From Spirochaetia bacterium (GTDB lineage: Bacteria; Spirochaetota; Spirochaetia; CAKZLE01), in the NCBI GenBank assembly GCA_963677595.1, contig OY782041.1, positions 3,456,001 through 3,520,000 on the forward strand: a stretch of 64,000 nt of DNA, given 5' to 3'. The notes below the pieces were generated by a model that saw only the letters and a program-made list of their open reading frames with translations, did no database searches and had not been told where the DNA came from. Both the position numbers and the translations under genes were made by a program. Positions 43,754-56,722 of the stretch are shown here, piece after piece; the stretch's first letter is position 1; each line of letters opens with the position of its first letter.

Positions 43754-44542
43754 TTAGGGGGTATACCGCAGCTTGCGTGAGATCTCCTTGCCGTACCGTA
43801 TCACCTCATTGAGCATGAAGTTGAACTTGTTCCTATTATGGTAGTCCTGGATATGGCCGACGATGCCTATGGCACAGACGACCTGTTTCGTGTAGTCATA
43901 GACCGGGACTGCAAGGCTCCCTATGCCAAGGGAGTACTCTTCGAGATCGGTTGCGTACTTCCGCTCCTTAGCGAGGAAGATCTCCTGCTTATAGGTCTCG
44001 AGGTTGGTAATGGTCTTTTCCGTGTTCGTTGGGACGAACCGCCAGGCACGCCGCAGGAAGTTCTCCTGTTCCTGCTTCGGCATAAATGCGGTGAGGATCT
44101 TCCCGCTGGCAGTCAGGTTGATCGGGATCTTCTCCCTGATCGTCGACATGATCCCCACGGGTTTTGAGGGGAGCACCTGGTCGATGACCATGACCCCGTC
44201 ATCATGGACGACTGCCAGGGTGCAGGCCTGAACCGTCCGCTCCGCTATGGTTCGCATGAACGGTCGTGACTGGGTCGCTAAGTCATTCGCGTTCTGGACG
44301 TGTTGGGAGATCTCGAGGATCCGGGGGCCTGCGATGTATTTCCCGCTCGAGCGATAGTCACCGAGAAGGTAGTTCTTGTCCAGCAGAAGTCTCACGATCC
44401 GGTAGACCGAGGCTATCGGCAGGTCGAGTTCCTGAGCTATCTCCTGTGCGGATAATGATATGCTTGAAGCAGCGATGAGCTCTATGATCTGCAGGGTTCG
44501 CAGTGCTGAAGGAGGGTAGCTGCTGTCCGATGAATTCTGCAT
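43754..44542 (-). CDS. IclR family transcriptional regulator
   Basis: RTLQIIE...IASVYRIV helix-turn-helix; TASGK, YATDLEE, SLAVPV. Confidence 0.93.
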   Translation of the reverse strand: MQNSSDSSYPPSALRTLQIIELIAASSISLSAQEIAQELDLPIASVYRIVRLLLDKNYLLGDYRSSGKYIAGPRILEISQHVQNANDLATQSRPFMRTIAERTVQACTLAVVHDDGVMVIDQVLPSKPVGIMSTIREKIPINLTASGKILTAFMPKQEQENFLRRAWRFVPTNTEKTITNLETYKQEIFLAKERKYATDLEEYSLGIGSLAVPVYDYTKQVVCAIGIVGHIQDYHNRNKFNFMLNEVIRYGKEISRKLRYTP

Positions 44543-44605
44543 CCTGAAGGTCCTCCATGGAGTGGTTGTTGAGAACTATATCATAATTCTTCATTCTCAG
44601 CAATA

Positions 44606-44759
44606 TATCAAATAAGATTATTAAAGTATCAAATATGATAATACAAATAAATATAGAAAAAAATTCTCGAGAAAAACCACTCATAAATGTATATATTATC
44701 ATATATGATATATATAAAATCATATAGAATTTGACAGCTGGAATTTTCGGTGCTAGTAT
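44606..44759 (+). promoter_or_regulatory. IclR-type operators and sigma70 promoter of the GRE operon
   Basis: TATCAwATATGATA-like boxes at 44606, 44627, 44697 and 44718; TTGACA (44731) - 17 nt - TAGTAT (44754) with an extended -10 TG. Confidence 0.7.
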
Positions 44760-44781
44760 TCCATCACAAGTGAGGTTTGAA

Positions 44782-45729
44782 ATGGGTCATGAAATTATCT
44801 CCATAGGCGGGCTGCTCGTTGAGATCATCAGGAAGGAACATGGAAGGACGCTGAGTGAGTCAGCAGACTTTGCCGGTCCCTATCCCAGTGGTGATACACC
44901 TATTTTCATCCATGCGGCTGCGAAGCTGGGAAAGGACTGCGGGTTCATCGGTTCCTGCGGGAATGATGCCTTCGGAGACTGTGTCTATGACCGGCTTGCT
45001 GCAAGCGGGGTCGATATGACGCATGTCAAGAAGATCCCCGGCTTGATGACCGGTACCACCTTCGTCATGTATGAGGAAGACGGCACGAGGAAGTTCATGT
45101 ACCACCTGCAGAACTCCGGTTCAGCGGTGGTCACGATCGACGATGTGAGTTCAGAGTACTTCAAGGGCTGTAAGTGGGTGCATTATACCGCATTCAACCT
45201 TGAGATCAGTGACTCGGTCAGGAGTGCTATCTACCGTTCCATGCAGCTGCTGGATGATGACACGATCGTGAGTTTCGACCCTAACGTCCGATTCGAGCTC
45301 TATTCACCGGAACAGCTCAAGAAGATGTGTGAACCGATCCTGAAGCGGGCAAACGTGATCCTGCCGAGCCAGTACGAGTTCTCCAGGATGTACGGCAAGA
45401 CTGATGATGAGGTCTGTACTGAATGGATGGACAAGGGCAAGCTCGTGATCCTCAAGCTTGCAGACCAGGGCTGCCGCATCTACGAGAAGGGAAAGATCGT
45501 GGATGTTGCACCGTTCAGGACTGTTGAGATCGATGCTACCGGGGCAGGAGATATCTTCTGTGCAGCATTTGCCGTTGCCAGGCTGGATGGTAAGTCGATC
45601 CATGATGCAGCGGTCTACGCGAATGCAGCCGGCGCCTTCTCGGTCACCAGGATGGGGCCGATGGAGGGAACCGTCTCCAAGGAAGAGCTTGAGGAGTTCC
45701 TCAGGACCGAACAGGCTGAGATCTTTTAA
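44782..45729 (+). CDS. PfkB family sugar kinase (1)
   Basis: GNDAFG, FDPNVR, DATGAGD. The ORF track's TTG 44731 is the -35 box, so the start is set at ATG 44782. Confidence 0.93.
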   Translation: MGHEIISIGGLLVEIIRKEHGRTLSESADFAGPYPSGDTPIFIHAAAKLGKDCGFIGSCGNDAFGDCVYDRLAASGVDMTHVKKIPGLMTGTTFVMYEEDGTRKFMYHLQNSGSAVVTIDDVSSEYFKGCKWVHYTAFNLEISDSVRSAIYRSMQLLDDDTIVSFDPNVRFELYSPEQLKKMCEPILKRANVILPSQYEFSRMYGKTDDEVCTEWMDKGKLVILKLADQGCRIYEKGKIVDVAPFRTVEIDATGAGDIFCAAFAVARLDGKSIHDAAVYANAAGAFSVTRMGPMEGTVSKEELEEFLRTEQAEIF

Positions 45730-45782
45730 TTATTTGGGAATCGATCTTCGTATGGAAGATTTGAATAAACAGGAGGACTGAT

Positions 45783-46784
45783 ATGAAACGAGTATTGATG
45801 ATTATGCTGGTCATGATCTCTCTGACAGGGATGCTGTTCGCAGCAGGAGCTCAGGAAGCTTCAGACAAGGGCGATTATGAGATCGTTGTGGTACCGAAGG
45901 ATGCAACCATCCCATGGTTCGTACGAATGGATGTTGGTGTGAAGGAGTTCGCTGCGGACTCAGGACTCAATGTCTACATGAAGGGACCTTCAGCTACTGA
46001 CGTGACCCAGCAGGCAGAAGTGATCGAGGACCTGATCGCACAGGGTGTTGATGCACTTTGTGTCGTACCTGTAGACCCTTCAGCTCTTGAGCCGGTACTG
46101 AAGAAGGCAATGGACAGGGGTATCGTCGTCGTTACCCATGAGGGATCGACCCAGAAGAACACCATGTACAATGTCGAGGCGTTTGACAACGCAGGATACG
46201 GTGCGTTCATCATGGACAACCTCGCTGCAGCGATGGGAGAGACTGGTGTTTACACTACCATGGTAGGACATGTCACCAACGCTTCCCACAACGAATGGGC
46301 AGATGGTGCCGTGAATCGACAGCTCGAGGCTTACCCGAACATGACACTCCTTGCTGCTGACCCCCGTGTCGAGATCATGGACGATGCAAGTGTCACCTAT
46401 GAGAAGGCAAAAGAGCTCTTCAAGAAGTATGCTGAACTCGAAGGTATCGTCGGGACTTCAGCACACGTCGTTGCGAATGTCCCGAGGGCGATCGAGGAAC
46501 TCGGTCTTGTTGACAAGGCATTCGTCAGTGGTACAGGCCTCCCGTCACAGGCTGGGCAGTACATCAAGAGCGGGTCAGTGAAGTCGATGACCCTCTGGGA
46601 CCCGGCAGATGCAGGCTATGTCATGGCTGCCCTTGCTGAGAAGATCCTCGATGGGGAAGAGATCACCAACGGTGTAGACCTTGGCAAGCCGGGGTATGAG
46701 AACATGATTCTCAAAGGCAACCAGCTGCAGGGTGCAGGGTGGATCACGATCGATGCATCCAACATCGACCAGTTCAACTTCTAA
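45783..46784 (+). CDS. Monosaccharide ABC substrate-binding protein (LsrB/RhaS-like)
   Basis: VVPK..IPWFVRM, IEDLIAQGVDAL, VTHE, GTGLPS, LWDPADAG. Confidence 0.9.
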   Translation: MKRVLMIMLVMISLTGMLFAAGAQEASDKGDYEIVVVPKDATIPWFVRMDVGVKEFAADSGLNVYMKGPSATDVTQQAEVIEDLIAQGVDALCVVPVDPSALEPVLKKAMDRGIVVVTHEGSTQKNTMYNVEAFDNAGYGAFIMDNLAAAMGETGVYTTMVGHVTNASHNEWADGAVNRQLEAYPNMTLLAADPRVEIMDDASVTYEKAKELFKKYAELEGIVGTSAHVVANVPRAIEELGLVDKAFVSGTGLPSQAGQYIKSGSVKSMTLWDPADAGYVMAALAEKILDGEEITNGVDLGKPGYENMILKGNQLQGAGWITIDASNIDQFNF

Positions 46785-46797
46785 TCTAGAATAAGAT

Positions 46798-46827
46798 GGG
46801 GCAGAGTTTAGCTCTGCCCCTGTTTTT
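46798..46827 (+). terminator. Stem-loop after the binding-protein gene
   Basis: GGGGCAGAG-TTTAG-CTCTGCCCC followed by TGTTTTT. Confidence 0.7.
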
Positions 46828-46854
46828 CCTACAGAGAAAGCGGGTTTAATAATT

Positions 46855-48351
46855 ATGGATGAATACATACTGCGTGCGAAGGCGATCACCAAGAATTTCG
46901 CCGGAGTGCAGGCACTGCGGGGAGTCTCCCTGGACATCGGGAAGGGTGAGATCCACTGCCTCGCAGGAGAGAATGGAAGCGGGAAGTCGACATTGATCAA
47001 GATCATCTCCGGTGTAGAGGAGATGAACTCCGGTGAATTGGAGATCAAAGGCAAGTCCTATACGAAGATCACACCGATCGAGTCGATCAGGAACGGGATC
47101 CAGGTCATCTACCAGGACCTCTCAGTCTTCCCGAACCTCACGGTAAAAGAGAATCTAGCATATAATACGATCGTAGCTGACCGGAAGAAGATAATAAACT
47201 GGAAAGAGATCGAATCACTGGCCAAAGAGGCTTTGGGCAGGATCAACGTCAATATAGATCTGAATGCGATAGTGGGCGATCTCTCGATCGCTGACAAGCA
47301 GCTAATCGCTATATCGCGGGCGCTGCTGAATAATGCTGAGCTGATCATCATGGATGAGCCGACGACAGCCCTCACGAGGAGGGAGATCAACAACCTTTTC
47401 AAGATCATCAAGCAGCTGCAGGAACGGGGAATATCGATTCTCTTCGTCAGCCACAAGCTTGATGAGGTCTTCGAGATCTCGGACAGGTTCACCATCTTCC
47501 GGAATGGGGAGAATATCAAGAGCGGTGCTACCTCGGAACTCGATGACAAGAAGTTCACCTATTACATGACCGGTAGGGAATTCGAGGAGAAGAGGTTCTC
47601 CTACACCAGGCCGGATGATACGCCGCTTCTCTCGGTGAAGGACCTCACACTCAACCATGGGTTCTCTGATGTCTCGTTCGACCTCTATAAGGGTGAGATC
47701 CTCGGCATCACCGGACTGCTCGGTTCAGGAAGGGCAGAGTTGGCACTTGCCCTCAGCGGCTACTACAAGCCCGACAGCGGTACGTTCCGGCTCAAGGGTG
47801 AGGAGAAGAGATTCTCCAGCATCACCGATGCCATAGCATCGAATATCGGGTATGTGCCTGAAGACCGGCTCACTGAAGGGCTCTTCATGCCGAAGGCAAT
47901 TGGGCGGAACATCATCCTGCCGAAGATCCAGAAGTTCGCGAGTCGGTTCGGATTCCTCAACAAGCAGGCGATCCAGGACGAAATCGACTCCTGGGTATCC
48001 AGGCTGGCGATCAAGACACCGGATGCCGCGAATCCCGTACGGACATTATCAGGGGGGAATCAGCAGCGGGTCGTGCTGGCAAAGTGGCTGGCGATCAATC
48101 CCGAGGTGCTGATCCTCAACGGGCCGACGGTCGGAGTAGACATCGGTTCTAAATATGATATCCACGAAGTCATCAAGGAACTCTCATCCAAGGGGATCGG
48201 CGTGATCGTCATCTCCGATGACCTGCCGGAGATCCTGTCTGTCTGCAGCAGGGTCCTCATCATGAAGGCCGGCAGGGTGACCTCAGAATATGAGACGGCT
48301 GACATGCAGGTCCATGAACTGACGGTTGAGATGACCGAAGATATCGAGTAG
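46855..48351 (+). CDS. Monosaccharide ABC transporter ATP-binding protein (RbsA-like)
   Basis: GENGSGKST, MDEPT, VPEDR, LSGGNQQ. Confidence 0.95.
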   Translation: MDEYILRAKAITKNFAGVQALRGVSLDIGKGEIHCLAGENGSGKSTLIKIISGVEEMNSGELEIKGKSYTKITPIESIRNGIQVIYQDLSVFPNLTVKENLAYNTIVADRKKIINWKEIESLAKEALGRINVNIDLNAIVGDLSIADKQLIAISRALLNNAELIIMDEPTTALTRREINNLFKIIKQLQERGISILFVSHKLDEVFEISDRFTIFRNGENIKSGATSELDDKKFTYYMTGREFEEKRFSYTRPDDTPLLSVKDLTLNHGFSDVSFDLYKGEILGITGLLGSGRAELALALSGYYKPDSGTFRLKGEEKRFSSITDAIASNIGYVPEDRLTEGLFMPKAIGRNIILPKIQKFASRFGFLNKQAIQDEIDSWVSRLAIKTPDAANPVRTLSGGNQQRVVLAKWLAINPEVLILNGPTVGVDIGSKYDIHEVIKELSSKGIGVIVISDDLPEILSVCSRVLIMKAGRVTSEYETADMQVHELTVEMTEDIE

Positions 48352-48369
48352 ATAGGTGAGGTAAGAACA

Positions 48370-49365
48370 TTGAACAAGCTACTGAAAAAGAATGAATTCT
48401 ATGTCTTTCTGACAATCATATTACTCAGCCTGATCATACAGATGCGAAGCGGCCAGTTCTTCACGCCGAACAACATCGTGGATCTCGTGGTATCGATGAT
48501 CGTACCTGCGATGCTGAGTCTCAGTGCCTTCCTGGTGATCATATCAGGCGGCATTGATGTATCGTTCCCGGCAATTGCATCGTTGAGCATGTATGTGACG
48601 ACAGAGTTGATGGTGAAGTTAAACTTCGCAGGCCCGATCTGGGTGGTGTACCTCATTGCTGCCGGCATCGGGATCCTGCTGGGTTCCTTCAACGGCCTGC
48701 TGGTCGTGCTGCTGAAGCTGCCGACCCTGATCATCACGCTGGGTACCTCGAGCGTATTCATAGGCATCATGCTCGGAGCCCTGAAAGCCCGGGAGATCGC
48801 TGACCTGCCCGTAACCATGCAGTCCTTCGGCAATGCGTCGCTGTTGGTGGCAAGGAACGCCGAGAGCGGCCTTACTTCGAACTTGCCGCCGACGGTCCTG
48901 CTGCTTGGAGGGATCGTGCTGATCCTCTTCCTGCTGCTGAAGTTCACCGTACTCGGGCGCTCGATCTACGCAGTAGGTGGTGATGAGATCGCCGCAAGGC
49001 GGTCCGGTTTCCCGGTAGACAAGACCAAGATCTTCGTCTACATGCTCTCAGGCTGTATCGCCGGGATCGCAGGGATCTCACGTGTCTGCATGCTGCAGAA
49101 CTGCTATCCGACCAACCTGCTCGGAACTGAGTTGAACGCTATCGCAGCGGTAGTCCTCGGTGGTGCGAGCATCACAGCCGGGGGGATCGGCACACTGACC
49201 GGGGCCCTCCTGGGAACTGCGCTGATCACGATCATGGCCAACAGTATGATCCTTCTGGGAATACCGACCTACTGGCAGAGTTTCTCTACCGGTATGCTCA
49301 TCCTGGTAGGAATCGGGGTGTCGGCATATCAGACGATGAGAGCCCAGACTCGAATCAAAGATTAA
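48370..49365 (+). CDS. Monosaccharide ABC permease
   Basis: GGIDVS, GRSIYAVGG, IAAVVLGGAS. Confidence 0.93.
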   Translation: MNKLLKKNEFYVFLTIILLSLIIQMRSGQFFTPNNIVDLVVSMIVPAMLSLSAFLVIISGGIDVSFPAIASLSMYVTTELMVKLNFAGPIWVVYLIAAGIGILLGSFNGLLVVLLKLPTLIITLGTSSVFIGIMLGALKAREIADLPVTMQSFGNASLLVARNAESGLTSNLPPTVLLLGGIVLILFLLLKFTVLGRSIYAVGGDEIAARRSGFPVDKTKIFVYMLSGCIAGIAGISRVCMLQNCYPTNLLGTELNAIAAVVLGGASITAGGIGTLTGALLGTALITIMANSMILLGIPTYWQSFSTGMLILVGIGVSAYQTMRAQTRIKD

Positions 49366-49380
49366 TGACAGGAGAATCAG

Positions 49381-50400
49381 GTGAATACTAAGCATAATAA
49401 CGGCTTCTTAACAACGTTAGACAGATTGTATAAGAAGGACACGAACTACGGAAGATTACTGATCATCCTGATCATATCGGTGGTGTTCCTCGGGATACTG
49501 AAACCCTCGAAGTTCCTGACCTTCTACTCCTTCCAGTCGATGGCATACCAGTTCCCGCAGTTCGGGCTGCTTTCCCTCGGTGTCATGATTGCTATGATCA
49601 GCGGCGGTATCGACCTCTCTGTGGTCGGGATTGCCAACCTCTCTGCAGTCATGGCGGCTAAGACCCTGCTCGTCCTCATCCAGGAGGATTCCACGGGTAT
49701 TTCCCTCGGGTTTGGGATCATCATCGTCATCCTCGTTGGACTGGTGGTCGGCATGATCGCCGGCCTGCTCAACGGGCTGTTGATCTCGAGGATCGGTATA
49801 CCTCCTATCCTGGCGACGTTGGCGACCATGCAGCTCTTCAGGGGTGTCACAGTCGTCCTCACGGAAGGCAGGGCGGTGAGCCATCTGCCTATCCAGTTCT
49901 CGAATATGGGGAATGCGACGATCTTCGGGATCATACCTGTACCGACCCTCATATTCATCCTTGCAGCCCTCGGGGTCAGCATCCTGCTCTCGAAGACCGT
50001 CTACGGTGAGAGGCTCTTCATGCTGGGGACGAACCCTGTTGCCGCCCTCTACAGTGGGCTGAAGATCAAGAACCTCTTGGTCAGGGCTTATATGCTCTCC
50101 GGAGTGATGGCAGCCCTCGCAGGGATGGTCATGATGGCCAGGATGAACTCGGCACGAGCCGACTACGGCACGCAGTATACCCTGCAGAGTATCCTGGTGG
50201 TCGTTCTCGGGGGAGTCGATCCGAACGGGGGTACCGGCCGCGTCGGGACGGTAGTGCTGGCGATCATCGTGCTGCAGATGCTCTCCACCGGGCTGAACAT
50301 GTTCCCCTCGATAAGTAACTTCTACCGGTCGTTCATCTGGGGGATGGTCCTGCTGGTCATCCTCGGCTGGAACGCTCTCCACAAGCGGAAGAACTCGTAG
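49381..50400 (+). CDS. Monosaccharide ABC permease
   Basis: SGGIDLSV, LGTNPVAA, VVLGGVDPNGG. Confidence 0.93.
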   Translation: MNTKHNNGFLTTLDRLYKKDTNYGRLLIILIISVVFLGILKPSKFLTFYSFQSMAYQFPQFGLLSLGVMIAMISGGIDLSVVGIANLSAVMAAKTLLVLIQEDSTGISLGFGIIIVILVGLVVGMIAGLLNGLLISRIGIPPILATLATMQLFRGVTVVLTEGRAVSHLPIQFSNMGNATIFGIIPVPTLIFILAALGVSILLSKTVYGERLFMLGTNPVAALYSGLKIKNLLVRAYMLSGVMAALAGMVMMARMNSARADYGTQYTLQSILVVVLGGVDPNGGTGRVGTVVLAIIVLQMLSTGLNMFPSISNFYRSFIWGMVLLVILGWNALHKRKNS

Positions 50401-50448
50401 GGTGGGCAGTTGCGTAAGTGTAAAAATCATTTCATAGAGGAGTCAAAT

Positions 50449-51399
50449 ATGAGATTCGATATAGTCTCGATCGGTGCACTTCTGGTTGAGATCATGAGAA
50501 AGGACAAGAACCAGGATTTTAATGTACCGGCTGAGTTCATGGGGCCGTTTCCCAGCGGGGATACCCCGATATTCATCAATGCCGCCTCGAAACTGGGCTT
50601 CAAGTGCGGGTTCATCGGGACCGTCGGCAATGACGGGTTTGGGCAGTGCGTGATCGAGCGTCTCCAAGAGAATCATGTGGACACCGAGTGCATCAGGGTG
50701 ATCGACAGCCTCTCCACGGCAGTGACCTTCATTGCCTATTTTACCGGCGGGAACAGGAAGTTCCTCTACCACCTGCACAATGCAGCTGCCGGAGATCTGA
50801 GGCCATCTGATGTGAAGAAAGAGTATGTCAGTGATACCAAATGGGTTCATCTTACCGGATTCGGCCTCTCAGGGAGCGTGAGTTCCCGTGAAGCTGCCCT
50901 GAAGATCCTCGACTATATTCCCGATTCGGTACAGGTGAGTTTCGATCCCAATATCAGGACGGAAGCCCTGAGCCTTGAAGAACTCAGGGAGATCTCGATG
51001 CCGGTGATCGAGCGCTGCAGCGTCTTCCTTCCCAGCGAAGGCGAAGCAAAGGAGATCATGGGGATGGACAGTGATGAGGAAGCCTGCAGGTACCTTGCAT
51101 CCCAGGGAAAGATCGTTGCCCAAAAACTTGGGCCTGCGGGGAGCAGGATCTATGCAGGGGACCAGGTGATCGCCGTACCGTCATTCCCTGCAGTTGAAGT
51201 GGATCCGACCGGTGCAGGCGACACCTTCAGTGCCGCGTTCATCGGGGCGCTGATCGAAGGTAAGGATCTCTATGATGCGGGGCTATTCGCGAACACTGCG
51301 GCAATGCTCTCCATCGGCAAGAAGGGCCCTATGGAAGGAGCTCCTTCCAGGGCTGAGGTGGATGACTTCCTCAAAGAGAAAACTGAAGCAGTAATCTAA
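50449..51399 (+). CDS. PfkB family sugar kinase (2)
   Basis: GNDGFG, FDPNIR, DPTGAGD; paralog of the kinase at 44782. Confidence 0.93.
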   Translation: MRFDIVSIGALLVEIMRKDKNQDFNVPAEFMGPFPSGDTPIFINAASKLGFKCGFIGTVGNDGFGQCVIERLQENHVDTECIRVIDSLSTAVTFIAYFTGGNRKFLYHLHNAAAGDLRPSDVKKEYVSDTKWVHLTGFGLSGSVSSREAALKILDYIPDSVQVSFDPNIRTEALSLEELREISMPVIERCSVFLPSEGEAKEIMGMDSDEEACRYLASQGKIVAQKLGPAGSRIYAGDQVIAVPSFPAVEVDPTGAGDTFSAAFIGALIEGKDLYDAGLFANTAAMLSIGKKGPMEGAPSRAEVDDFLKEKTEAVI

Positions 51400-51436
51400 C
51401 CGTCTGCGTACGGATTTGAATGAATTGGAGTTGAAC

Positions 51437-52285
51437 ATGGTAATAGACATACATGCCCATCCGGGCTTCATCAAGGAGATCAGTGAGGACTCAGAGCGGG
51501 TAGCGTTCAGGAGGGAGAGCTTCTTCCTCTACAAGCAGCACGTATGGCCGATAGAGCTGGTCATCAAGCAGCTCGATGCGGCTGGGATCGACAAGTCGGT
51601 CCTGCTGCCGGAAGATGTCACGACACGGTGGGGTGACACGATCGTCTCGAACGAGGAGGTCGCGAAGCTCGTTGAGCTCGTCCCGGACCGGTTCATCGGG
51701 TTCGCGAGCGTCGACCCGAACCGGGAGGATGCCGTCGAGGTGCTCGAGCAGGCCTTCACCGACTACAAGCTCTCAGGGTTGAAGCTCAACCCGTCGAACC
51801 AGCGGTTCTACCCGCAGGATGAGAAGCTCGCACCGATCTATGAACTGTGCGTGAAGCACAACAAGCCGATCCTCTTCCATGCAGGGATGACCTGGCTCAA
51901 GGAGTCGCCGGCAAAATACTCACAGCCGCTGAACTTCGAGGACGTGGCGATCGGGTACCCGGAACTGCGGATCAGCCTCGGCCACTTCGGGTGGCCGTGG
52001 GTGATGGACACGGCGATGCTGCTGCTGAAGTACCCGAACGTCTATGCGGACACAGCACTGCTCTACTTCGACTCCCCGAAGCAGTTCTTCGATACGACCT
52101 TCAACAACCAGCTCGGTCCCTACTGGATCGACCGGATGCTCGCTGACAAGGTCATGTTCGGGTCGAACTACCCGAGGATCGAGCAGAAGCGGATGAAGGA
52201 TGCCCTCGACGTGCTGAAGCTGCGGGATGTGAACCGGAAGAAGGTACTCGGCGGGAACGCAATGAGATTCCTCAGTATAGAATAG
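51437..52285 (+). CDS. Amidohydrolase_2 family protein
   Basis: IDIHAH, GLKL, ILFHAG, GHFGWPW, NVYADT, FGSNYP. Confidence 0.9.
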   Translation: MVIDIHAHPGFIKEISEDSERVAFRRESFFLYKQHVWPIELVIKQLDAAGIDKSVLLPEDVTTRWGDTIVSNEEVAKLVELVPDRFIGFASVDPNREDAVEVLEQAFTDYKLSGLKLNPSNQRFYPQDEKLAPIYELCVKHNKPILFHAGMTWLKESPAKYSQPLNFEDVAIGYPELRISLGHFGWPWVMDTAMLLLKYPNVYADTALLYFDSPKQFFDTTFNNQLGPYWIDRMLADKVMFGSNYPRIEQKRMKDALDVLKLRDVNRKKVLGGNAMRFLSIE

Positions 52286-52294
52286 GAGAGAAAG

Positions 52295-52723
52295 ATGACA
52301 GAACATCATGAGATATATGTCCTGACGGACGATGACTACGACGTGAAGTATATCGGGGAGCAGGTCAAGGCGACGGTAGCGAACTCGAAGATCCAGAACG
52401 GGATCGTGACGATCGTCACCTCCCATACGAGTACGGGGATCAGCGTAACCGAGCCGCTCGACTGCATCCTGAGCGACCTGGAAGTGCTGATGCGCAAGCT
52501 CGTGAATGACGATGAGGAGTACTCGCATGCCCACTTCCTGCCGACCTACGGGAGGACCTCGGCCAATGCGCCTGGGCACCTGCGGTCGATCCTGACCGGG
52601 AACAGCTGCATCTTCCCGATCCAGGGGAAGAAGATGATGATGGGAGCAGCCCAGGAGATCCTGCTGATGGAGTTCGACGGACCCCAGAATCGCAAGATCT
52701 ATATCGATATCATAGGAGACTAG
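52295..52723 (+). CDS. yjbQ: YjbQ/UPF0047 family protein
   Basis: HTSTG, NAPGHLRS, EFDGPQNR. Confidence 0.88.
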   Translation: MTEHHEIYVLTDDDYDVKYIGEQVKATVANSKIQNGIVTIVTSHTSTGISVTEPLDCILSDLEVLMRKLVNDDEEYSHAHFLPTYGRTSANAPGHLRSILTGNSCIFPIQGKKMMMGAAQEILLMEFDGPQNRKIYIDIIGD

Positions 52724-52731
52724 CTAGGTAT

Positions 52732-55143
52732 ATGAGTAGAGTAACCCCCTCGAGCTCACACGATTACACAGGATACCTCAAGGACTTGAAGGCTCTCGGA
52801 CCGACCGACCGGATTACGACTGCAAGAGAGAGGATCTTTACCGAGAAGCGGTACCTGACGATCGAGCAGGCCCTGATCATCACCGAGACATACAAGCAGC
52901 ATGAAGGTGAGTCAAGGATCCTTCAGCGGGCGTATGCGCTCGCTGAGGCGCTGGAACGTCTCGAGATCAGGATCGACCCGGAAGAGTTGATCGTCGGGAA
53001 CCGGACTGCGGGTATCCGCTACGGGGTGGTCTCTCCTGAGGCCGGGATCGAATGGGTTGACCAGGAGCTTGAGACCTTCCCGACGCGGGAGCAGGACCAG
53101 TTCAATGTCCGGGAAGAGGACAAGGAAATCTTCCGGAACGAGATCCTTCCCTACTGGAAGGGCAAGGGGTTGCGGGACGAGATCGAGCGTGCCGACGGGA
53201 AGCAGATCAAGCTTCTTGAGAAGGTCGCGAAGATCAACCAGAAAGACCATGCCCAGGGACACATCTGCCCGGATGTGGAGAAGTGGCTTGAAGTCGGTCC
53301 TTCAGGCTTGAAGGAAGCGTGCCGGCAGAAACTGCTTACGGAGACAGATCGGGCAAAGAAGGATTTCTATATCGCCCTGATCCTGGTCCTTGACGGGACG
53401 ATAACCTTCATCGAACGCTACGAGAAGTTAGCCTTGGACATGGCTGGGAAGTCTGAATACAGCGACGTCGCTGAAGACCTCAAGCTGGTCGCGGCGAACT
53501 GCCGCAGGCTCAAAGACACTCCCCCGGAGACGTACCATGAAGCCCTGCAGTCGGTCTGGTTCCTCTTCGTCGTCATGCACATGGAATCCAACGCGAACTC
53601 TTTCTCCCCTGGACGTATGGACCAGTACCTTTACCCTTATTTCGAGAAGGAGTTCTCAGGCGGTACGCTCTCCCTGGAGCGTGCCCTTGAACTCACGGAT
53701 GCGTTCTACATCAAGCTGAACCATATCGTCTATATGCGGAACAAGTATAGTGCCCAGTACTTCGCTGGGTTCACGACCGGGTTCAACGTAGCCCTCGGGG
53801 GCCTGCTGCCAGACGGCAGTGACGGTACGAACCTGCTATCGTTCATCTTCCTCAAGGCCCAGGAGCATGTGCAGCTTGCACAGCCGAACCTCTCGGTACG
53901 GCTCCATGACGGGGCACCGGATGACTTTGTGAACGAGAGCAGCAGGATCATCAGTCTCGGCACCGGCATGCCGCAGGTGTTCAATGATGAGAGCATCATC
54001 CCGGCCTTGCAGCGGCAGGGTGTGGCTGATGAGCATGCGAAGGATTATGCGATTGTAGGCTGTGTCGAGCTCACTACGCCGGGCAACAACCTCGGTTGGA
54101 GCGATGCAGCCATGTTCAACATCCTCAAGGTACTCGAACTGACGATGAACAACGGGTACTGCCTGCTCACCGGCGACCTGCTGGGGCTGCAGACGGGCTA
54201 CCTCTATGACTATGGGACCTATGCTGAGTTGGAGGAGGCGTTCCGGAAACAGCTGGACTACTTCATCGCCAGGATGCATGAGAGCTCGATGGTCGTTGAT
54301 CGGATGCATGCAGAGGTGCTGCCTTCCCCATTCCTCTCCTCCGTGATCTCTGACTGTATCGAGAAGGGGATGGATGTAACTGCAGGGGGTGCCCACTACA
54401 ACTACAGCGGTATCCAGGTCATACAGGTCGCGAACATCGCAGACTGCCTCGCAGCGCTGAAGGTCGGGGTCTATGAAGACAGGCTCGTGGATGCGAACGA
54501 ACTCCTTAAGGCCTTGAAGGATAACTATGAGCATGATGAACCGCTTCGGCAGATGCTCATCAACAAGATCAGGAAGTTCGGCAATGACCACAGCGAGATC
54601 GATGAGCTTGCAAACCACTGGATCACCTATATCGAGCAGAAGATCGGTGCCCTGAAGAATGTCAGGGGCGGTAAGTACCAGGTTGGACTCTATACCGTCT
54701 CTGCCCATGTCCCCATGGGATTGAACGTCGGGGCTACACCCGACGGGAGGAAGGCCCGGGAACCCCTGGCAGACGGCGGTATGTCCCCTGTCTACGGGAG
54801 GGACCTGCTCGGCCCGACAGCCGTACTGAAATCGGTCTCGAGGGTGAACTCGCTCCTCGGGAGCAATGGTACGCTGCTGAACATGAAGTTCACCCCTGAT
54901 TTCTTCAAGACAGATGAGGATATAGCGAAGTTCTCGAGTTTCCTGCGGACCTTCGTGAAGCTCCATATCAACCATATCCAGTTCAATGTCATCACCGAGA
55001 AGGATCTGCTCAATGCGCAGAAACACCCGGAGAAATACCAGAACCTGCTCGTGAGGGTAGCGGGGTATACTGCCTACTTCACAGAACTTGCGAAAGACTT
55101 GCAGAATGAGATCATCCAGCGGACGACCCACGGGGAGCTATGA
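52732..55143 (+). CDS. Glycyl radical enzyme, PflD-like (not pyruvate formate-lyase)
   Basis: Single-Cys loop VGCVEL (PFL has CC) and glycyl loop VRVAGY. Also YFAGF, YTVSAHVP and LADGG...SNGTLLN motifs, recalled from E. coli PflD. Confidence 0.92.
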   Translation: MSRVTPSSSHDYTGYLKDLKALGPTDRITTARERIFTEKRYLTIEQALIITETYKQHEGESRILQRAYALAEALERLEIRIDPEELIVGNRTAGIRYGVVSPEAGIEWVDQELETFPTREQDQFNVREEDKEIFRNEILPYWKGKGLRDEIERADGKQIKLLEKVAKINQKDHAQGHICPDVEKWLEVGPSGLKEACRQKLLTETDRAKKDFYIALILVLDGTITFIERYEKLALDMAGKSEYSDVAEDLKLVAANCRRLKDTPPETYHEALQSVWFLFVVMHMESNANSFSPGRMDQYLYPYFEKEFSGGTLSLERALELTDAFYIKLNHIVYMRNKYSAQYFAGFTTGFNVALGGLLPDGSDGTNLLSFIFLKAQEHVQLAQPNLSVRLHDGAPDDFVNESSRIISLGTGMPQVFNDESIIPALQRQGVADEHAKDYAIVGCVELTTPGNNLGWSDAAMFNILKVLELTMNNGYCLLTGDLLGLQTGYLYDYGTYAELEEAFRKQLDYFIARMHESSMVVDRMHAEVLPSPFLSSVISDCIEKGMDVTAGGAHYNYSGIQVIQVANIADCLAALKVGVYEDRLVDANELLKALKDNYEHDEPLRQMLINKIRKFGNDHSEIDELANHWITYIEQKIGALKNVRGGKYQVGLYTVSAHVPMGLNVGATPDGRKAREPLADGGMSPVYGRDLLGPTAVLKSVSRVNSLLGSNGTLLNMKFTPDFFKTDEDIAKFSSFLRTFVKLHINHIQFNVITEKDLLNAQKHPEKYQNLLVRVAGYTAYFTELAKDLQNEIIQRTTHGEL

Positions 55144-56045
55144 TGCTGGGAACTATCTTCGATATCAAGCGTTTCTCCGTCCATGACGGCCCGGGACTGC
55201 GGACTACCGTCTTCCTCAAGGGCTGCCCGCTCACCTGTCTCTGGTGCCAGAATCCGGAAGGTCTCTCCCGTGAGATCGCCCTCTGGTACTTCCCGAACAA
55301 GTGTATCAGCTGCGGCAGGTGCATAGAGGCCTGCCCGAATGATGCCCTGCGAATGGAAGACGGGAAGATCATCATCGACCGGGACCTCTGCAGGAAGTGC
55401 GGCAGTTGCACGAAGGCCTGCCCGACGAATGCCCTGGCCTTTGACGGGAGGGTCGTTAGCGTGGATGAGGTCATGGAGGAAGTTCTGAAAGACCGGCAGT
55501 TCTATGAGACCTCAGGAGGCGGTATCACCCTCTCCGGGGGGGATGCCCTCGGCCAGCACCGGTTCGCCGGGGAGATCATGAAGCGGTGCAAGGAAGAGGG
55601 AATCCATACGGCCATGGAGAGCTGCATGTTCGCCACTGAGGAACAGATAGCTAGCGTCCTGCCGTATCTCGACTACTTGATCATGGATGTCAAGCACCAT
55701 GACAGCAGCCTGCACAGCAGGTATACCGGTGTCTCCAATGAGCGTATCCTCAAGAACCTCAAGGACATCGCAGCGGTATTCCCGATAGAGCAGATGCTTG
55801 TACGTATCCCCCTCATACCCGGTTATACCGCTGATCCAGCAAATGTGAAAGCCATCGCGGCGAAGGTTTTCGCCATCGATCCTGGCCTGCAGATCGAGCT
55901 GATCAACTACAATCCGCTTGCACCGAACAAATACCGGATCCTGCAGAAGGACTATGTGCCGGGAACTGATCTGAAGCCTCTTTCGGAGCAGGAGATCAGT
56001 GATCTGTATGCTATAATCGAGGAAGAGAGAAGGAGTACCCAATGA
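55140..56045 (+). CDS. Glycyl radical enzyme activating protein (radical SAM with ferredoxin insert)
   Basis: HDGPGLRTTVFLKGCPLTCLWCQNPE, two CxxCxxCxxxCP motifs, GGITLSGG. Confidence 0.96.
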   Translation: MMLGTIFDIKRFSVHDGPGLRTTVFLKGCPLTCLWCQNPEGLSREIALWYFPNKCISCGRCIEACPNDALRMEDGKIIIDRDLCRKCGSCTKACPTNALAFDGRVVSVDEVMEEVLKDRQFYETSGGGITLSGGDALGQHRFAGEIMKRCKEEGIHTAMESCMFATEEQIASVLPYLDYLIMDVKHHDSSLHSRYTGVSNERILKNLKDIAAVFPIEQMLVRIPLIPGYTADPANVKAIAAKVFAIDPGLQIELINYNPLAPNKYRILQKDYVPGTDLKPLSEQEISDLYAIIEEERRSTQ

Positions 56046-56722
56046 AGCGTTCAGAGATAAATGATATCATGAAAGAGGCCACGGAATTCATACACGAACA
56101 CGGGTTCGTGCTCCCTCCCTTTGGGTACTGGACCCCGGCCGACTGGGCATCCAAGGGGACAGAATGCATCGAGATCGTGGATAATATGCTCGGCTGGGAT
56201 ATCACGGACTTCGGTTTCGGGAACTACGAGAAGATCGGGCTGCTCATGTTCACCCTGCGAAACGGCAACTTCAACAAAGAGGCCTATCCCAAGGCCTATG
56301 CAGAGAAGCTCCTCATCTCAAAGGAGGGGCAGGTGACCCCCTTCCACTTCCACTGGTCGAAGATGGAGGATATCATCAACCGCGGCGGCGGCAACCTGGT
56401 CATCGAGTGCTGGAACAGCGACCCGGACGGAAAGAGGCTCGATACTGACGTCCAGCTCCATGTGGACGGGACGGTCATCACGGGTAAGGCCGGGATGAGA
56501 CTGACGCTGCACCCGGGAGAGAGCATCACGCTGCTTCCCTACCAGTACCATGCGTTCTGGGGTGAGAAGAGATCAGGGACGGTGCTCATCGGGGAGGTCT
56601 CCTCGGTGAACGACGACCGGGTCGATAACCGGTTCCTTGAGAAGACAGGACGGTTCCCCGAGATCACCGAGGATGAGGCCCCGCTCCACTACCTGTGTAA
56701 CGAGTACCCGAAACTGGGTTAA
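56042..56722 (+). CDS. D-lyxose/D-mannose family sugar isomerase (cupin)
   Basis: MKRSEIN, GWDITDFG, YAEK, PFHFHWSKMEDIINRGGG, GEVSSVNDD. Confidence 0.92.
   Translation: MKRSEINDIMKEATEFIHEHGFVLPPFGYWTPADWASKGTECIEIVDNMLGWDITDFGFGNYEKIGLLMFTLRNGNFNKEAYPKAYAEKLLISKEGQVTPFHFHWSKMEDIINRGGGNLVIECWNSDPDGKRLDTDVQLHVDGTVITGKAGMRLTLHPGESITLLPYQYHAFWGEKRSGTVLIGEVSSVNDDRVDNRFLEKTGRFPEITEDEAPLHYLCNEYPKLG

What the first reader, a model, noticed from the sequence alone, without database searches (positions are those of the whole stretch)
43754..56722. Candidate undescribed radical sugar-catabolic pathway: PflD-like GRE fed by an ABC importer and kinases, with no PTS or aldolase
Seen: a divergent iclR, then one promoter driving pfkB1, a four-gene ABC importer, pfkB2, amidohydrolase, yjbQ, GRE, activase and a lyxose/mannose-type isomerase, with tight spacing or overlaps. 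Established: E. coli PflD and YbiW are single-Cys GREs reported to ring-open 1,5-anhydrohexitol-6-phosphates to 1-deoxyfructose-6-phosphate, and they sit with PTS and Fsa aldolase genes. Inference: here ABC plus PfkB replaces the PTS, no aldolase is encoded, and three enzymes foreign to that pathway are embedded. The substrate or the downstream route therefore probably differs.
Basis: partly seen in the sequence, partly recalled or inferred. Interest (0 to 1): 0.8.

Follow-up and report, generated by a model that had tools for sequence, protein, structure and literature searches.

The report
Variant radical sugar-ring-opening operon with YjbQ
This intact, conserved operon carries a rare relative of the oxygen-sensitive enzyme that opens anhydro-sugar rings, with two otherwise fixed residues changed, and likely breaks down a different anhydro-sugar with help from an uncharacterised enzyme pair that elsewhere sits in operons for sugar-amino-acid (Amadori) compounds.

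Summary
The 12 genes are as described. The GRE is 44% identical to E. coli PflD and keeps Cys-x-Glu and the radical Gly. 'ABC instead of PTS, no aldolase' is not special: the genome has no PTS EIIC, and 39 of 79 relatives sit by ABC ATPases, 4 by FSA; the scan noted that sister clade before on other DNA. What is new: this GRE belongs to a small monophyletic clade (support 0.999) with Asn289 and Thr348 where 169 of 169 relatives have Ser and Pro. The same gene order recurs in another lineage, with an AGE epimerase replacing the lyxose isomerase. Its binding proteins carry their own pocket changes, and the genome keeps a standard paralogue beside a YbiW-like GRE. The amidohydrolase-fold + YjbQ pair is adjacent in 21 of 21 loci, 13 beside fructoselysine-type genes and 6 beside GREs. 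Likely a new-substrate branch of anhydroglycolysis; the substrate is not identified.

The parts
43754..44542 (-). IclR-family regulator, divergent; replaced by a downstream DeoR in the other lineage
   Evidence: PF09339+PF01614; DeoR in L088
44731..44759 (+). sigma-70-like promoter match in a 28% GC intergenic stretch
   Evidence: consensus scan 10 of 12 with TG; GC; function untested
44782..45729 (+). PfkB kinase 1, nearest model tagatose kinase (239 bits, cut-off 420); absent from L088/L118/L129
45783..46784 (+). ABC sugar-binding protein of the family that includes D-ribulose-binding AauA (PDB 9I1M); keeps K39, W45, E120, H169; GRE-linked copies have I43 and G/A227
46798..46820 (+). GC-rich hairpin with T run after the binding-protein gene
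   Evidence: role inferred (mRNA stabiliser or partial terminator)
46855..50400 (+). ABC ATPase (46855-48351) and two permeases (48370-49365, 49381-50400) of the monosaccharide type
   Evidence: 47-57% identical in L088
50449..51399 (+). PfkB kinase 2, tagatose-kinase-like (224 bits, cut-off 420); the kinase conserved with the operon
51437..52285 (+). Amidohydro_2-fold protein lacking the usual strand-8 Asp (Asn here); metal ligands vary among close relatives
52295..52723 (+). YjbQ/UPF0047 protein of a distinct subfamily (invariant H44, C57, D61, H78, H95; HxxxLxxYG insert)
52732..55143 (+). PflD-related glycyl radical enzyme, variant clade: C444, E446, G778, H177, R336 kept; N289 and T348 changed
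55140..56045 (+). Radical-SAM GRE activase with ferredoxin insert
   Evidence: TIGR02494 324 bits, cut-off 174
56042..56722 (+). D-lyxose/D-mannose isomerase family cupin; replaced by an AGE-family epimerase in the other lineage

Best explanation
The operon likely imports a small anhydro-sugar other than 1,5-anhydromannitol, likely phosphorylates it with PfkB2, and the variant glycyl radical enzyme would open its ring to a 1-deoxy-ketose phosphate, which the amidohydrolase-fold/YjbQ pair is predicted to process further. Shown: genes, order, motifs, clade, co-occurrence. From established GRE chemistry: Cys444 abstracts H at C2, Glu446 deprotonates the C2 hydroxyl, the C1-O ring bond breaks. Inferred: a changed substrate; first candidates are C4 epimers (1,5-anhydrotalitol/galactitol giving 1-deoxytagatose-6-P), second the five-membered anhydro-alditols (1,4-anhydropentitols, 2,5-anhydrohexitols). 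Inferred: the lyxose isomerase (or AGE epimerase) and PfkB1 form a side branch for a co-imported free aldose of the mannose/lyxose type.
For: GRE nearest solved structures are PflD, 8YJO 654 bits and 8ID0 638 bits, ahead of glycerol dehydratase at 572; it nests in the sister clade of E. coli PflD and keeps H177, R336, F347, C444, E446, D458, Y654, H659, all identical in PflD. PflD reaction and mechanism: PMC13450708 passages. Changed pocket: N289 and T348 in 7 of 7 variants against S and P in 169 of 169 relatives; N289 aligns to PflD S265 and YbiW H282, a position that differs between the two characterised enzymes and to the His of glycerol dehydratase ESNGHS (its substrate contact is recalled). 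Variants are monophyletic, 9 of 9 tips, support 0.999. Binding proteins linked to variants group in one 12-tip clade (0.897) with I43 in 8 of 8 against N in 110 of 114, and G/A227 in 8 of 8 against S in 108 of 114. 5 of 6 other variant GREs share a contig length with a listed homologue of this operon's binding protein or amidohydrolase, against 0 of 112 non-variants; the sixth lineage was read directly. Two genomes keep both a variant operon and a standard PflD-like + YbiW-like cluster (own; G1184). Both kinases are nearest to tagatose kinase. Amidohydrolase and YjbQ are adjacent in 21 of 21 loci; the other main context is catabolism of 1-amino-1-deoxy-ketose phosphates (13 of 21). Complex prediction for the pair: weak support, 0.48 against best control 0.00; runs agree in at least 72% of contacts, partner pLDDT at least 91; the mark was reached by 116 of 157 solved and 2 of 215 mismatched pairs, but at 0.60 or under by only 18 solved and both mismatches.
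Against: No activity data and no substrate-bound model; I could not read the PflD paper or its contact list, so that N289/T348 touch the substrate is inferred from alignment. The whole clade already differs from E. coli PflD at K152/H173, L431/W456 and H432/S457, so even the standard paralogue's substrate is unproven. The pair also occurs beside a standard Ser/Pro GRE plus a second GRE type (L092) and beside that second type with an FSA (L098), so it is not tied to the variant and need not replace an aldolase. In L093 the kinase + pair + isomerase occur with no GRE within about 10 kb. Kinase scores are far below the tagatose-kinase cut-off. An aldose-ketose isomerase has no substrate in a pure 1-deoxy-ketose route. 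Only two independent lineages were read gene by gene; contig-length matching is a proxy.
Confidence: 0.45

Rival explanations
1. It is a second copy of ordinary PflD-type anhydroglycolysis: 1,5-anhydromannitol-6-P is opened to 1-deoxyfructose-6-P and cleaved by an enzyme encoded elsewhere; the accessory pair is a repair or side module.
For: 44% identity and most aligned pocket positions equal to PflD; mannose-type isomerases in both lineages; the genome has 3 divergent transaldolase-family, 6 class II FBP-aldolase-family and 6 Aldolase_II proteins, a 29% GldA-like protein and a PDH/acetoin-dehydrogenase-like complex whose homologues lie near 4 of 79 relatives.
Against: Two 169-of-169 positions switched together; binding-protein pocket changed in step; a standard paralogue is retained in two genomes; no FsaA/FsaB orthologue by BLAST (only a 66-residue match).
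Confidence: 0.25
2. The GRE would open the ring of a C1-substituted sugar phosphate (a stable N-glycoside, amino- or imino-sugar) to an Amadori-type 1-substituted ketose phosphate, and the amidohydrolase/YjbQ pair would act as a new deglycase that frees an aldose for the isomerase and second kinase.
For: 13 of 21 loci with the pair are fructosamine-type clusters; GRE-linked YjbQs form one clade (0.967) nested among the fructosamine-linked ones; in L100 a fructoselysine kinase above cut-off sits with the pair and no SIS deglycase within about 10 kb; it would give the aldose isomerase/epimerase a substrate and explain the lack of an aldolase; a C-N cleaving GRE isomerase exists (HplG).
Against: 12 of the 13 fructosamine-type loci already have an FrlB-like deglycase; the importer is a monosaccharide ABC, whereas those clusters use amino-acid or peptide transporters; Ser to Asn fills rather than opens space; the isomerase also sits beside standard GREs without the pair.
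Confidence: 0.15
3. The GRE is a dehydratase acting on an open-chain polyol or sugar phosphate made by the isomerase and kinases from an imported ketose, not a ring-opening isomerase.
For: Binding-protein family includes a ketose binder; kinases resemble ketose kinases; Cys-x-Glu eliminases share the same machinery.
Against: No dehydrogenase to make a polyol is in the operon; the GRE is nested among PflD-like proteins and far from the dehydratase models (HpfG 615 and HypD 581 bits against cut-offs 1000 and 1100).
Confidence: 0.1

Closest known systems
E. coli PflD/PflC with FrwCBD-PtsA, FsaB and GldA (1,5-anhydromannitol-6-phosphate isomerase branch of anhydroglycolysis; Ma et al. 2024 as summarised in PMC13450708 and PMC12441222)
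   Same: GRE fold, Cys-x-Glu, radical Gly, long-type activase; 43.9% identity; H177, R336, F347, D458, Y654, H659 shared.
   Different: S265 to N, P323 to T, K152 to H, H432 to S; ABC + PfkB uptake; no FSA or GldA in the operon; amidohydrolase-fold + YjbQ pair and an aldose isomerase/epimerase instead.
Uncharacterised PTS-free PflD-like sister clade (ABC + 600-residue kinase-like protein + ROK, often with a YbiW-like GRE); own paralogue G000:C1:1109482-1111839
   Same: 55-61% identity for most, same KDHAQGH/GWSD-type motifs, ABC uptake, usually no aldolase nearby.
   Different: Ser/Pro kept in 169 of 169; kinase is K600 (46 of 79) or ROK (32 of 79), not PfkB; amidohydrolase and YjbQ in 0 of 79 loci found with the GRE. 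L092, found via the amidohydrolase, is an exception.
Fructoselysine/psicoselysine operons (FrlB deglycase, FrlC epimerase, FrlD kinase)
   Same: A PfkB kinase next to the same amidohydrolase-fold + YjbQ pair, 36-55% identical to the window's.
   Different: No GRE; amino-acid or peptide transporters; the window operon has no FrlB, FrlC or FrlD.
YjbQ/UPF0047 family (TIGR00149; PDB 1VE0, 1VPH)
   Same: Family match above cut-off (93.5 bits, cut-off 67.75).
   Different: Distinct subfamily with a HxxxLxxYG insert (18 of the best 150 profile hits); the family's physiological function is listed as unknown in PMC3010111 and PMC7954711.

Membership tests
Glycyl radical enzyme, eliminase/isomerase type | PFL-like + Gly_radical domains, single Cys in Cys-x-Glu, RVAG Gly loop, adjacent activase | tested here: met
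   C444, E446, G778; TIGR01774 784 bits over cut-off 678
PflD (1,5-anhydromannitol-6-P isomerase) | NCBIfam PRK09983 equivalog cut-off | tested here: not met
   775.6 bits against 1109
PflD (1,5-anhydromannitol-6-P isomerase) | Identity of residues at aligned pocket positions | tested here: inconclusive
   H156, R311, F322, C419, E421, D433, Y617, H622 kept; S265, P323, K152, H432 differ; the published contact list was not available
PflD (1,5-anhydromannitol-6-P isomerase) | PTS uptake and FSA aldolase in the locus | tested here: not met
   none in the operon; no PTS EIIC in the genome; no FsaB BLAST hit
PflD (1,5-anhydromannitol-6-P isomerase) | Converts AM6P to 1-deoxyfructose-6-P | not testable with these tools
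   needs anaerobic assay
YbiW (1,5-anhydroglucitol-6-P isomerase) | YbiW-type motifs and clade | tested here: not met
   33.9% identity; separate clade; the genome's YbiW-like GRE is at C1:1121275 (56%)
Metal-dependent amidohydrolase (Amidohydro_2) | Conserved HxH, strand-5/6 His and strand-8 Asp metal site | tested here: not met
   strand-8 Asp replaced by N/T/G in 12 of 12 aligned; second His is F/Y in 3 and L in 4; strand-5 His is E/Q in 3; only H183 invariant; one further homologue (L131) keeps Asp. Fold met.
YjbQ/UPF0047 | TIGR00149/PF01894 over cut-off with conserved His residues | tested here: met
Tagatose kinase (NF049991) | Equivalog cut-off 420 bits | tested here: not met
   239 and 224 bits
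D-lyxose/D-mannose isomerase (NF051472, PF07385) | Family score | tested here: inconclusive
   Pfam 334 bits over cut-off; NCBIfam 284 against 350; full-length match to 3KMH

The most novel reading that the evidence does not exclude
The variant GRE performs a radical Amadori-type ring opening of a C1-substituted or amino/imino sugar phosphate, and the metal-poor amidohydrolase barrel plus YjbQ form a two-subunit deglycase or lyase of a new class, shared with fructosamine catabolism: a new GRE reaction and the first physiological function for the YjbQ family in one operon.
Probability: 0.15. Interest if true: 0.88.

Novelty: new variant of a known kind. Interest (0 to 1): 0.62.

Why it matters
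The 2026 review read here lists only three GRE isomerases. A clade with a cleanly switched pocket, a matched binding protein and a conserved kinase is a compact route to a fourth substrate and to an overlooked anhydro-sugar in anaerobic habitats. The operon also puts a YjbQ protein, a family still without a physiological function in the papers read, between a kinase and a GRE, and ties it to fructosamine catabolism, so its substrate range can be tested with a short list of ketose phosphates. If the GRE proves to be a plain PflD copy, the value falls to a range extension plus the YjbQ lead.

Tried and rejected
Rejected 'no PTS' and 'no aldolase' as signs of novelty. Motif scan of 401 same-phylum genomes found only the own genome; the JGI metagenome scan gave 1 locus; none of the 79 GRE loci carried the variant. 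The YjbQ subfamily was not found in 5 same-family genomes, 86-97% complete. Binding-protein search in 251 genomes of an actinobacterial class found nothing at 1e-100, so the ligand of the wider family could not be read from aerobes. Five weak amidohydrolase hits (32-39%) were not examined for neighbours and are not in the 21-locus count. ESM Atlas gave only family names. PDB and fold searches gave no characterised close relative for the amidohydrolase (nearest 3IRS, then LigJ hydratase at about 20% identity). No amidohydrolase-YjbQ fusion was seen among 7 long proteins checked from the best 150 profile hits, so the Asgard fusion in earlier notes is unconfirmed here. No structural model of the GRE and no expression data were obtained. 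Paper searches listed no paper that describes this clade or pairs a GRE with YjbQ; one search found no paper holding both terms; subscription journals, including the PflD paper and its supplements, are not held and may already chart this clade in a similarity network. YjbQ as the aldolase substitute was considered and down-weighted because L098 has the pair together with an FSA.
Full report
Observation. Gaps run from -4 to 70 bp. PfkB1 most likely starts at 44782, since the TTG at 44731 is the first hexamer of a sigma-70-like site. The genome is one 4.33 Mb contig, 54.6% GC; named close relatives of its proteins are mostly Spirochaetia, so a spirochaete is inferred, not tested.

The GRE and its kin. 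It is 43.9% identical to E. coli PflD and 33.9% to YbiW; the nearest solved structures are the two PflD entries; it misses the PflD equivalog cut-off (776 against 1109 bits). A 2026 review (PMC13450708: outline, passages and section 5.6 read) states that PflD and YbiW open 1,5-anhydromannitol-6-P and 1,5-anhydroglucitol-6-P to 1-deoxyfructose-6-P by H abstraction at C2 and Glu-assisted C-O cleavage; PMC12441222 (passages) adds PTS uptake. The primary paper is not held. A scan of GTDB gave 79 loci at 47-61% identity (the best 80 of 211 confirmed stretches). Within 10 kb, 39 have an ABC ATPase, 46 a 600-residue kinase-like protein, 32 a ROK kinase, 18 a YbiW-like GRE, 5 the lyxose isomerase, 4 an FSA, 1 a FrwC-like PTS gene, none the amidohydrolase or YjbQ; many loci are short, and among the 36 of 20 kb or more the counts are 27, 27, 19, 12, 5 and 2. 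The own genome has no PTS EIIC. So ABC uptake and a missing aldolase are the rule in this clade, and earlier scan notes had described that clade on other DNA.

What sets this copy apart. Among 176 clade members aligned, positions 289 and 348 are the only ones that flip from fully invariant to a different fixed residue: Asn and Thr in 7 of 7 variants, Ser and Pro in 169 of 169 others. Position 289 aligns to PflD Ser265 and YbiW His282, and 348 follows the aromatic residue at 347. That these line the substrate pocket is inferred from the alignment to glycerol dehydratase and recalled contacts. In a tree of a subsample (all variants, 35 locus proteins drawn at random, about 25 database proteins, references) the 9 variant tips form one clade, support 0.999, nested in the sister group of E. 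coli PflD. The variant is rare: best relatives 61-68%, 1 of 401 same-phylum genomes, the own one, one metagenome locus.

The operon travels with the variant. L088, and the near-identical L118 and L129, carry binding protein (64%), ATPase, permeases, PfkB2 (59%), amidohydrolase (48%), YjbQ (51%), variant GRE (61%) and activase in the same order, then an AGE-family epimerase in place of the lyxose isomerase and a DeoR gene; they have one kinase only. For the variants whose contigs I could not read, 5 of 6 share a longest-contig length with a listed homologue of the binding protein (4) or amidohydrolase (1), against 0 of 112 non-variants; this is a proxy, limited to the best 119 hits of each search, and kin are not independent. 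The binding protein belongs to the family of AauA, which binds D-ribulose through Lys37, Trp43, Glu118, His167, Glu196 and Ser223 (PMC12307932, passages); the first four align to conserved residues here. GRE-linked copies fall in one 12-tip clade and have Ile43 and Gly/Ala227 where 110 and 108 of 114 others have Asn and Ser. Both the own genome and G1184 keep a standard PflD-like plus YbiW-like cluster as well, which argues for a different job.

The amidohydrolase-fold + YjbQ pair. In 21 loci the two genes touch or overlap in every case: 12 were found through the amidohydrolase, 6 through YjbQ, the rest through the GRE motif, the binding protein or the window. Seven have a tagatose-kinase-like PfkB, six of these with a GRE (four are the window and one other lineage); 13 have fructoselysine-type genes, several with FrlD above the NCBIfam cut-off; one has neither. 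The GRE/PfkB-linked YjbQs form a clade (0.967) nested among the fructosamine-linked ones; the amidohydrolase tree is similar but places the L088 lineage apart; patristic distances correlate at 0.70 over 19 loci. The barrel folds well (pLDDT 94) but lacks the strand-8 Asp and has variable His ligands, while YjbQ keeps His44, Cys57, Asp61, His78 and His95, so the metal site of a joint enzyme may lie in YjbQ (inference). A complex prediction gave weak support: 0.48 against 0.00 for the best control, with the calibration caveat that scores of 0.60 or under were reached by 18 of 157 solved pairs and by both of 2 passing mismatches out of 215. YjbQ has no assigned function in the papers read (PMC3010111, PMC6883840, PMC7954711: passages). 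Earlier scan notes describe the pair in an extended fructosamine operon and as a fusion in Asgard archaea; I did not find the fusion among 7 long hits checked.

Mechanism. Most likely (0.45) the importer and PfkB2 supply an anhydro-sugar phosphate other than AM6P, the GRE opens it by the PflD mechanism to a 1-deoxy-ketose phosphate, the pair processes that product, and the isomerase or epimerase with PfkB1 salvages a co-imported mannose/lyxose-type aldose. The shared feature of the pair's two contexts would be a ketose phosphate without a C1 hydroxyl. Genes, motifs, clade and co-occurrence are shown; the chemistry follows from PflD; substrate and downstream steps are inferred. Against it: the pair also accompanies a standard Ser/Pro GRE and a second GRE type, once with an FSA, and the genome has many aldolase-family genes elsewhere, though no FsaA/B orthologue. 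Rivals: plain AM6P pathway (0.25); radical formation of an Amadori-type product with a new deglycase (0.15); open-chain dehydratase (0.10).

Verdict. It works like the PflD branch of anhydroglycolysis but is not shown to be PflD. Nine paper searches listed nothing on this clade or on a GRE-YjbQ link; subscription papers and their supplements were out of reach and may bear on that. New variant of a known kind; interest 0.62.

Noticed in passing
G000:C1:1109482-1128159: Standard paralogue cluster: PflD-like GRE (60.5%), activase, 603-residue protein with no NCBIfam match, ABC importer, ROK kinase, YbiW-like GRE (56% to E. coli), GMC-type and Gfo/Idh/MocA-type oxidoreductases, lactonase-like gene; no aldolase seen. 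The two oxidoreductases recur near 24 and 23 of 79 relatives; their names are my reading of the sequence.
   Followed up: partly
L092:6992-9412 and L098:5754-8156: A second uncharacterised GRE type (about 30% to the window GRE, 71% to each other over 553 residues; GCSE, GGNQLFQ, KVAG motifs) sits with the same kinase + amidohydrolase + YjbQ module, once with an FSA.
   Followed up: partly
L110:5405-9908; L011, L050, L071, L078; G000:C1:2064163-2069386: A PDH/acetoin-dehydrogenase-like complex with fused E1 alpha-beta lies near several PflD-like GREs. It could cleave a methyl-ketol such as 1-deoxyfructose-6-P to acetyl-CoA and a shorter aldose phosphate where FSA is missing; inference only.
   Followed up: partly
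G000:C1:2213882-2214928, 1679829-1680881, 3001410-3003149: Three divergent transaldolase-family proteins, all far below NCBIfam cut-offs, two within TRAP-type sugar-acid-like clusters.
   Followed up: partly
G000:C1:4056995-4060411: A fourth GRE (812 aa, GCSE motif, about 32% to the others) with activase, behind a sigma-54-type activator; unassigned.
   Followed up: no
L116:7079-17775 (Enterococcus faecium DO plasmid 2): Shortened amidohydrolase, YjbQ, amino-acid permease, frlD, SIS protein and beta-galactosidase form an extended fructosamine cluster next to an IS1216 element.
   Followed up: partly
window:57096-63899: Downstream and separate: flavodoxin-like FMN reductase, then by sequence reading a DegT-type aminotransferase, glycosyltransferase, ATP-grasp protein and an ABC set.
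   Followed up: no
window:1-6000: Low-GC stretch (40-42% against 54.6% for the genome) carrying another sugar ABC cluster.
   Followed up: no
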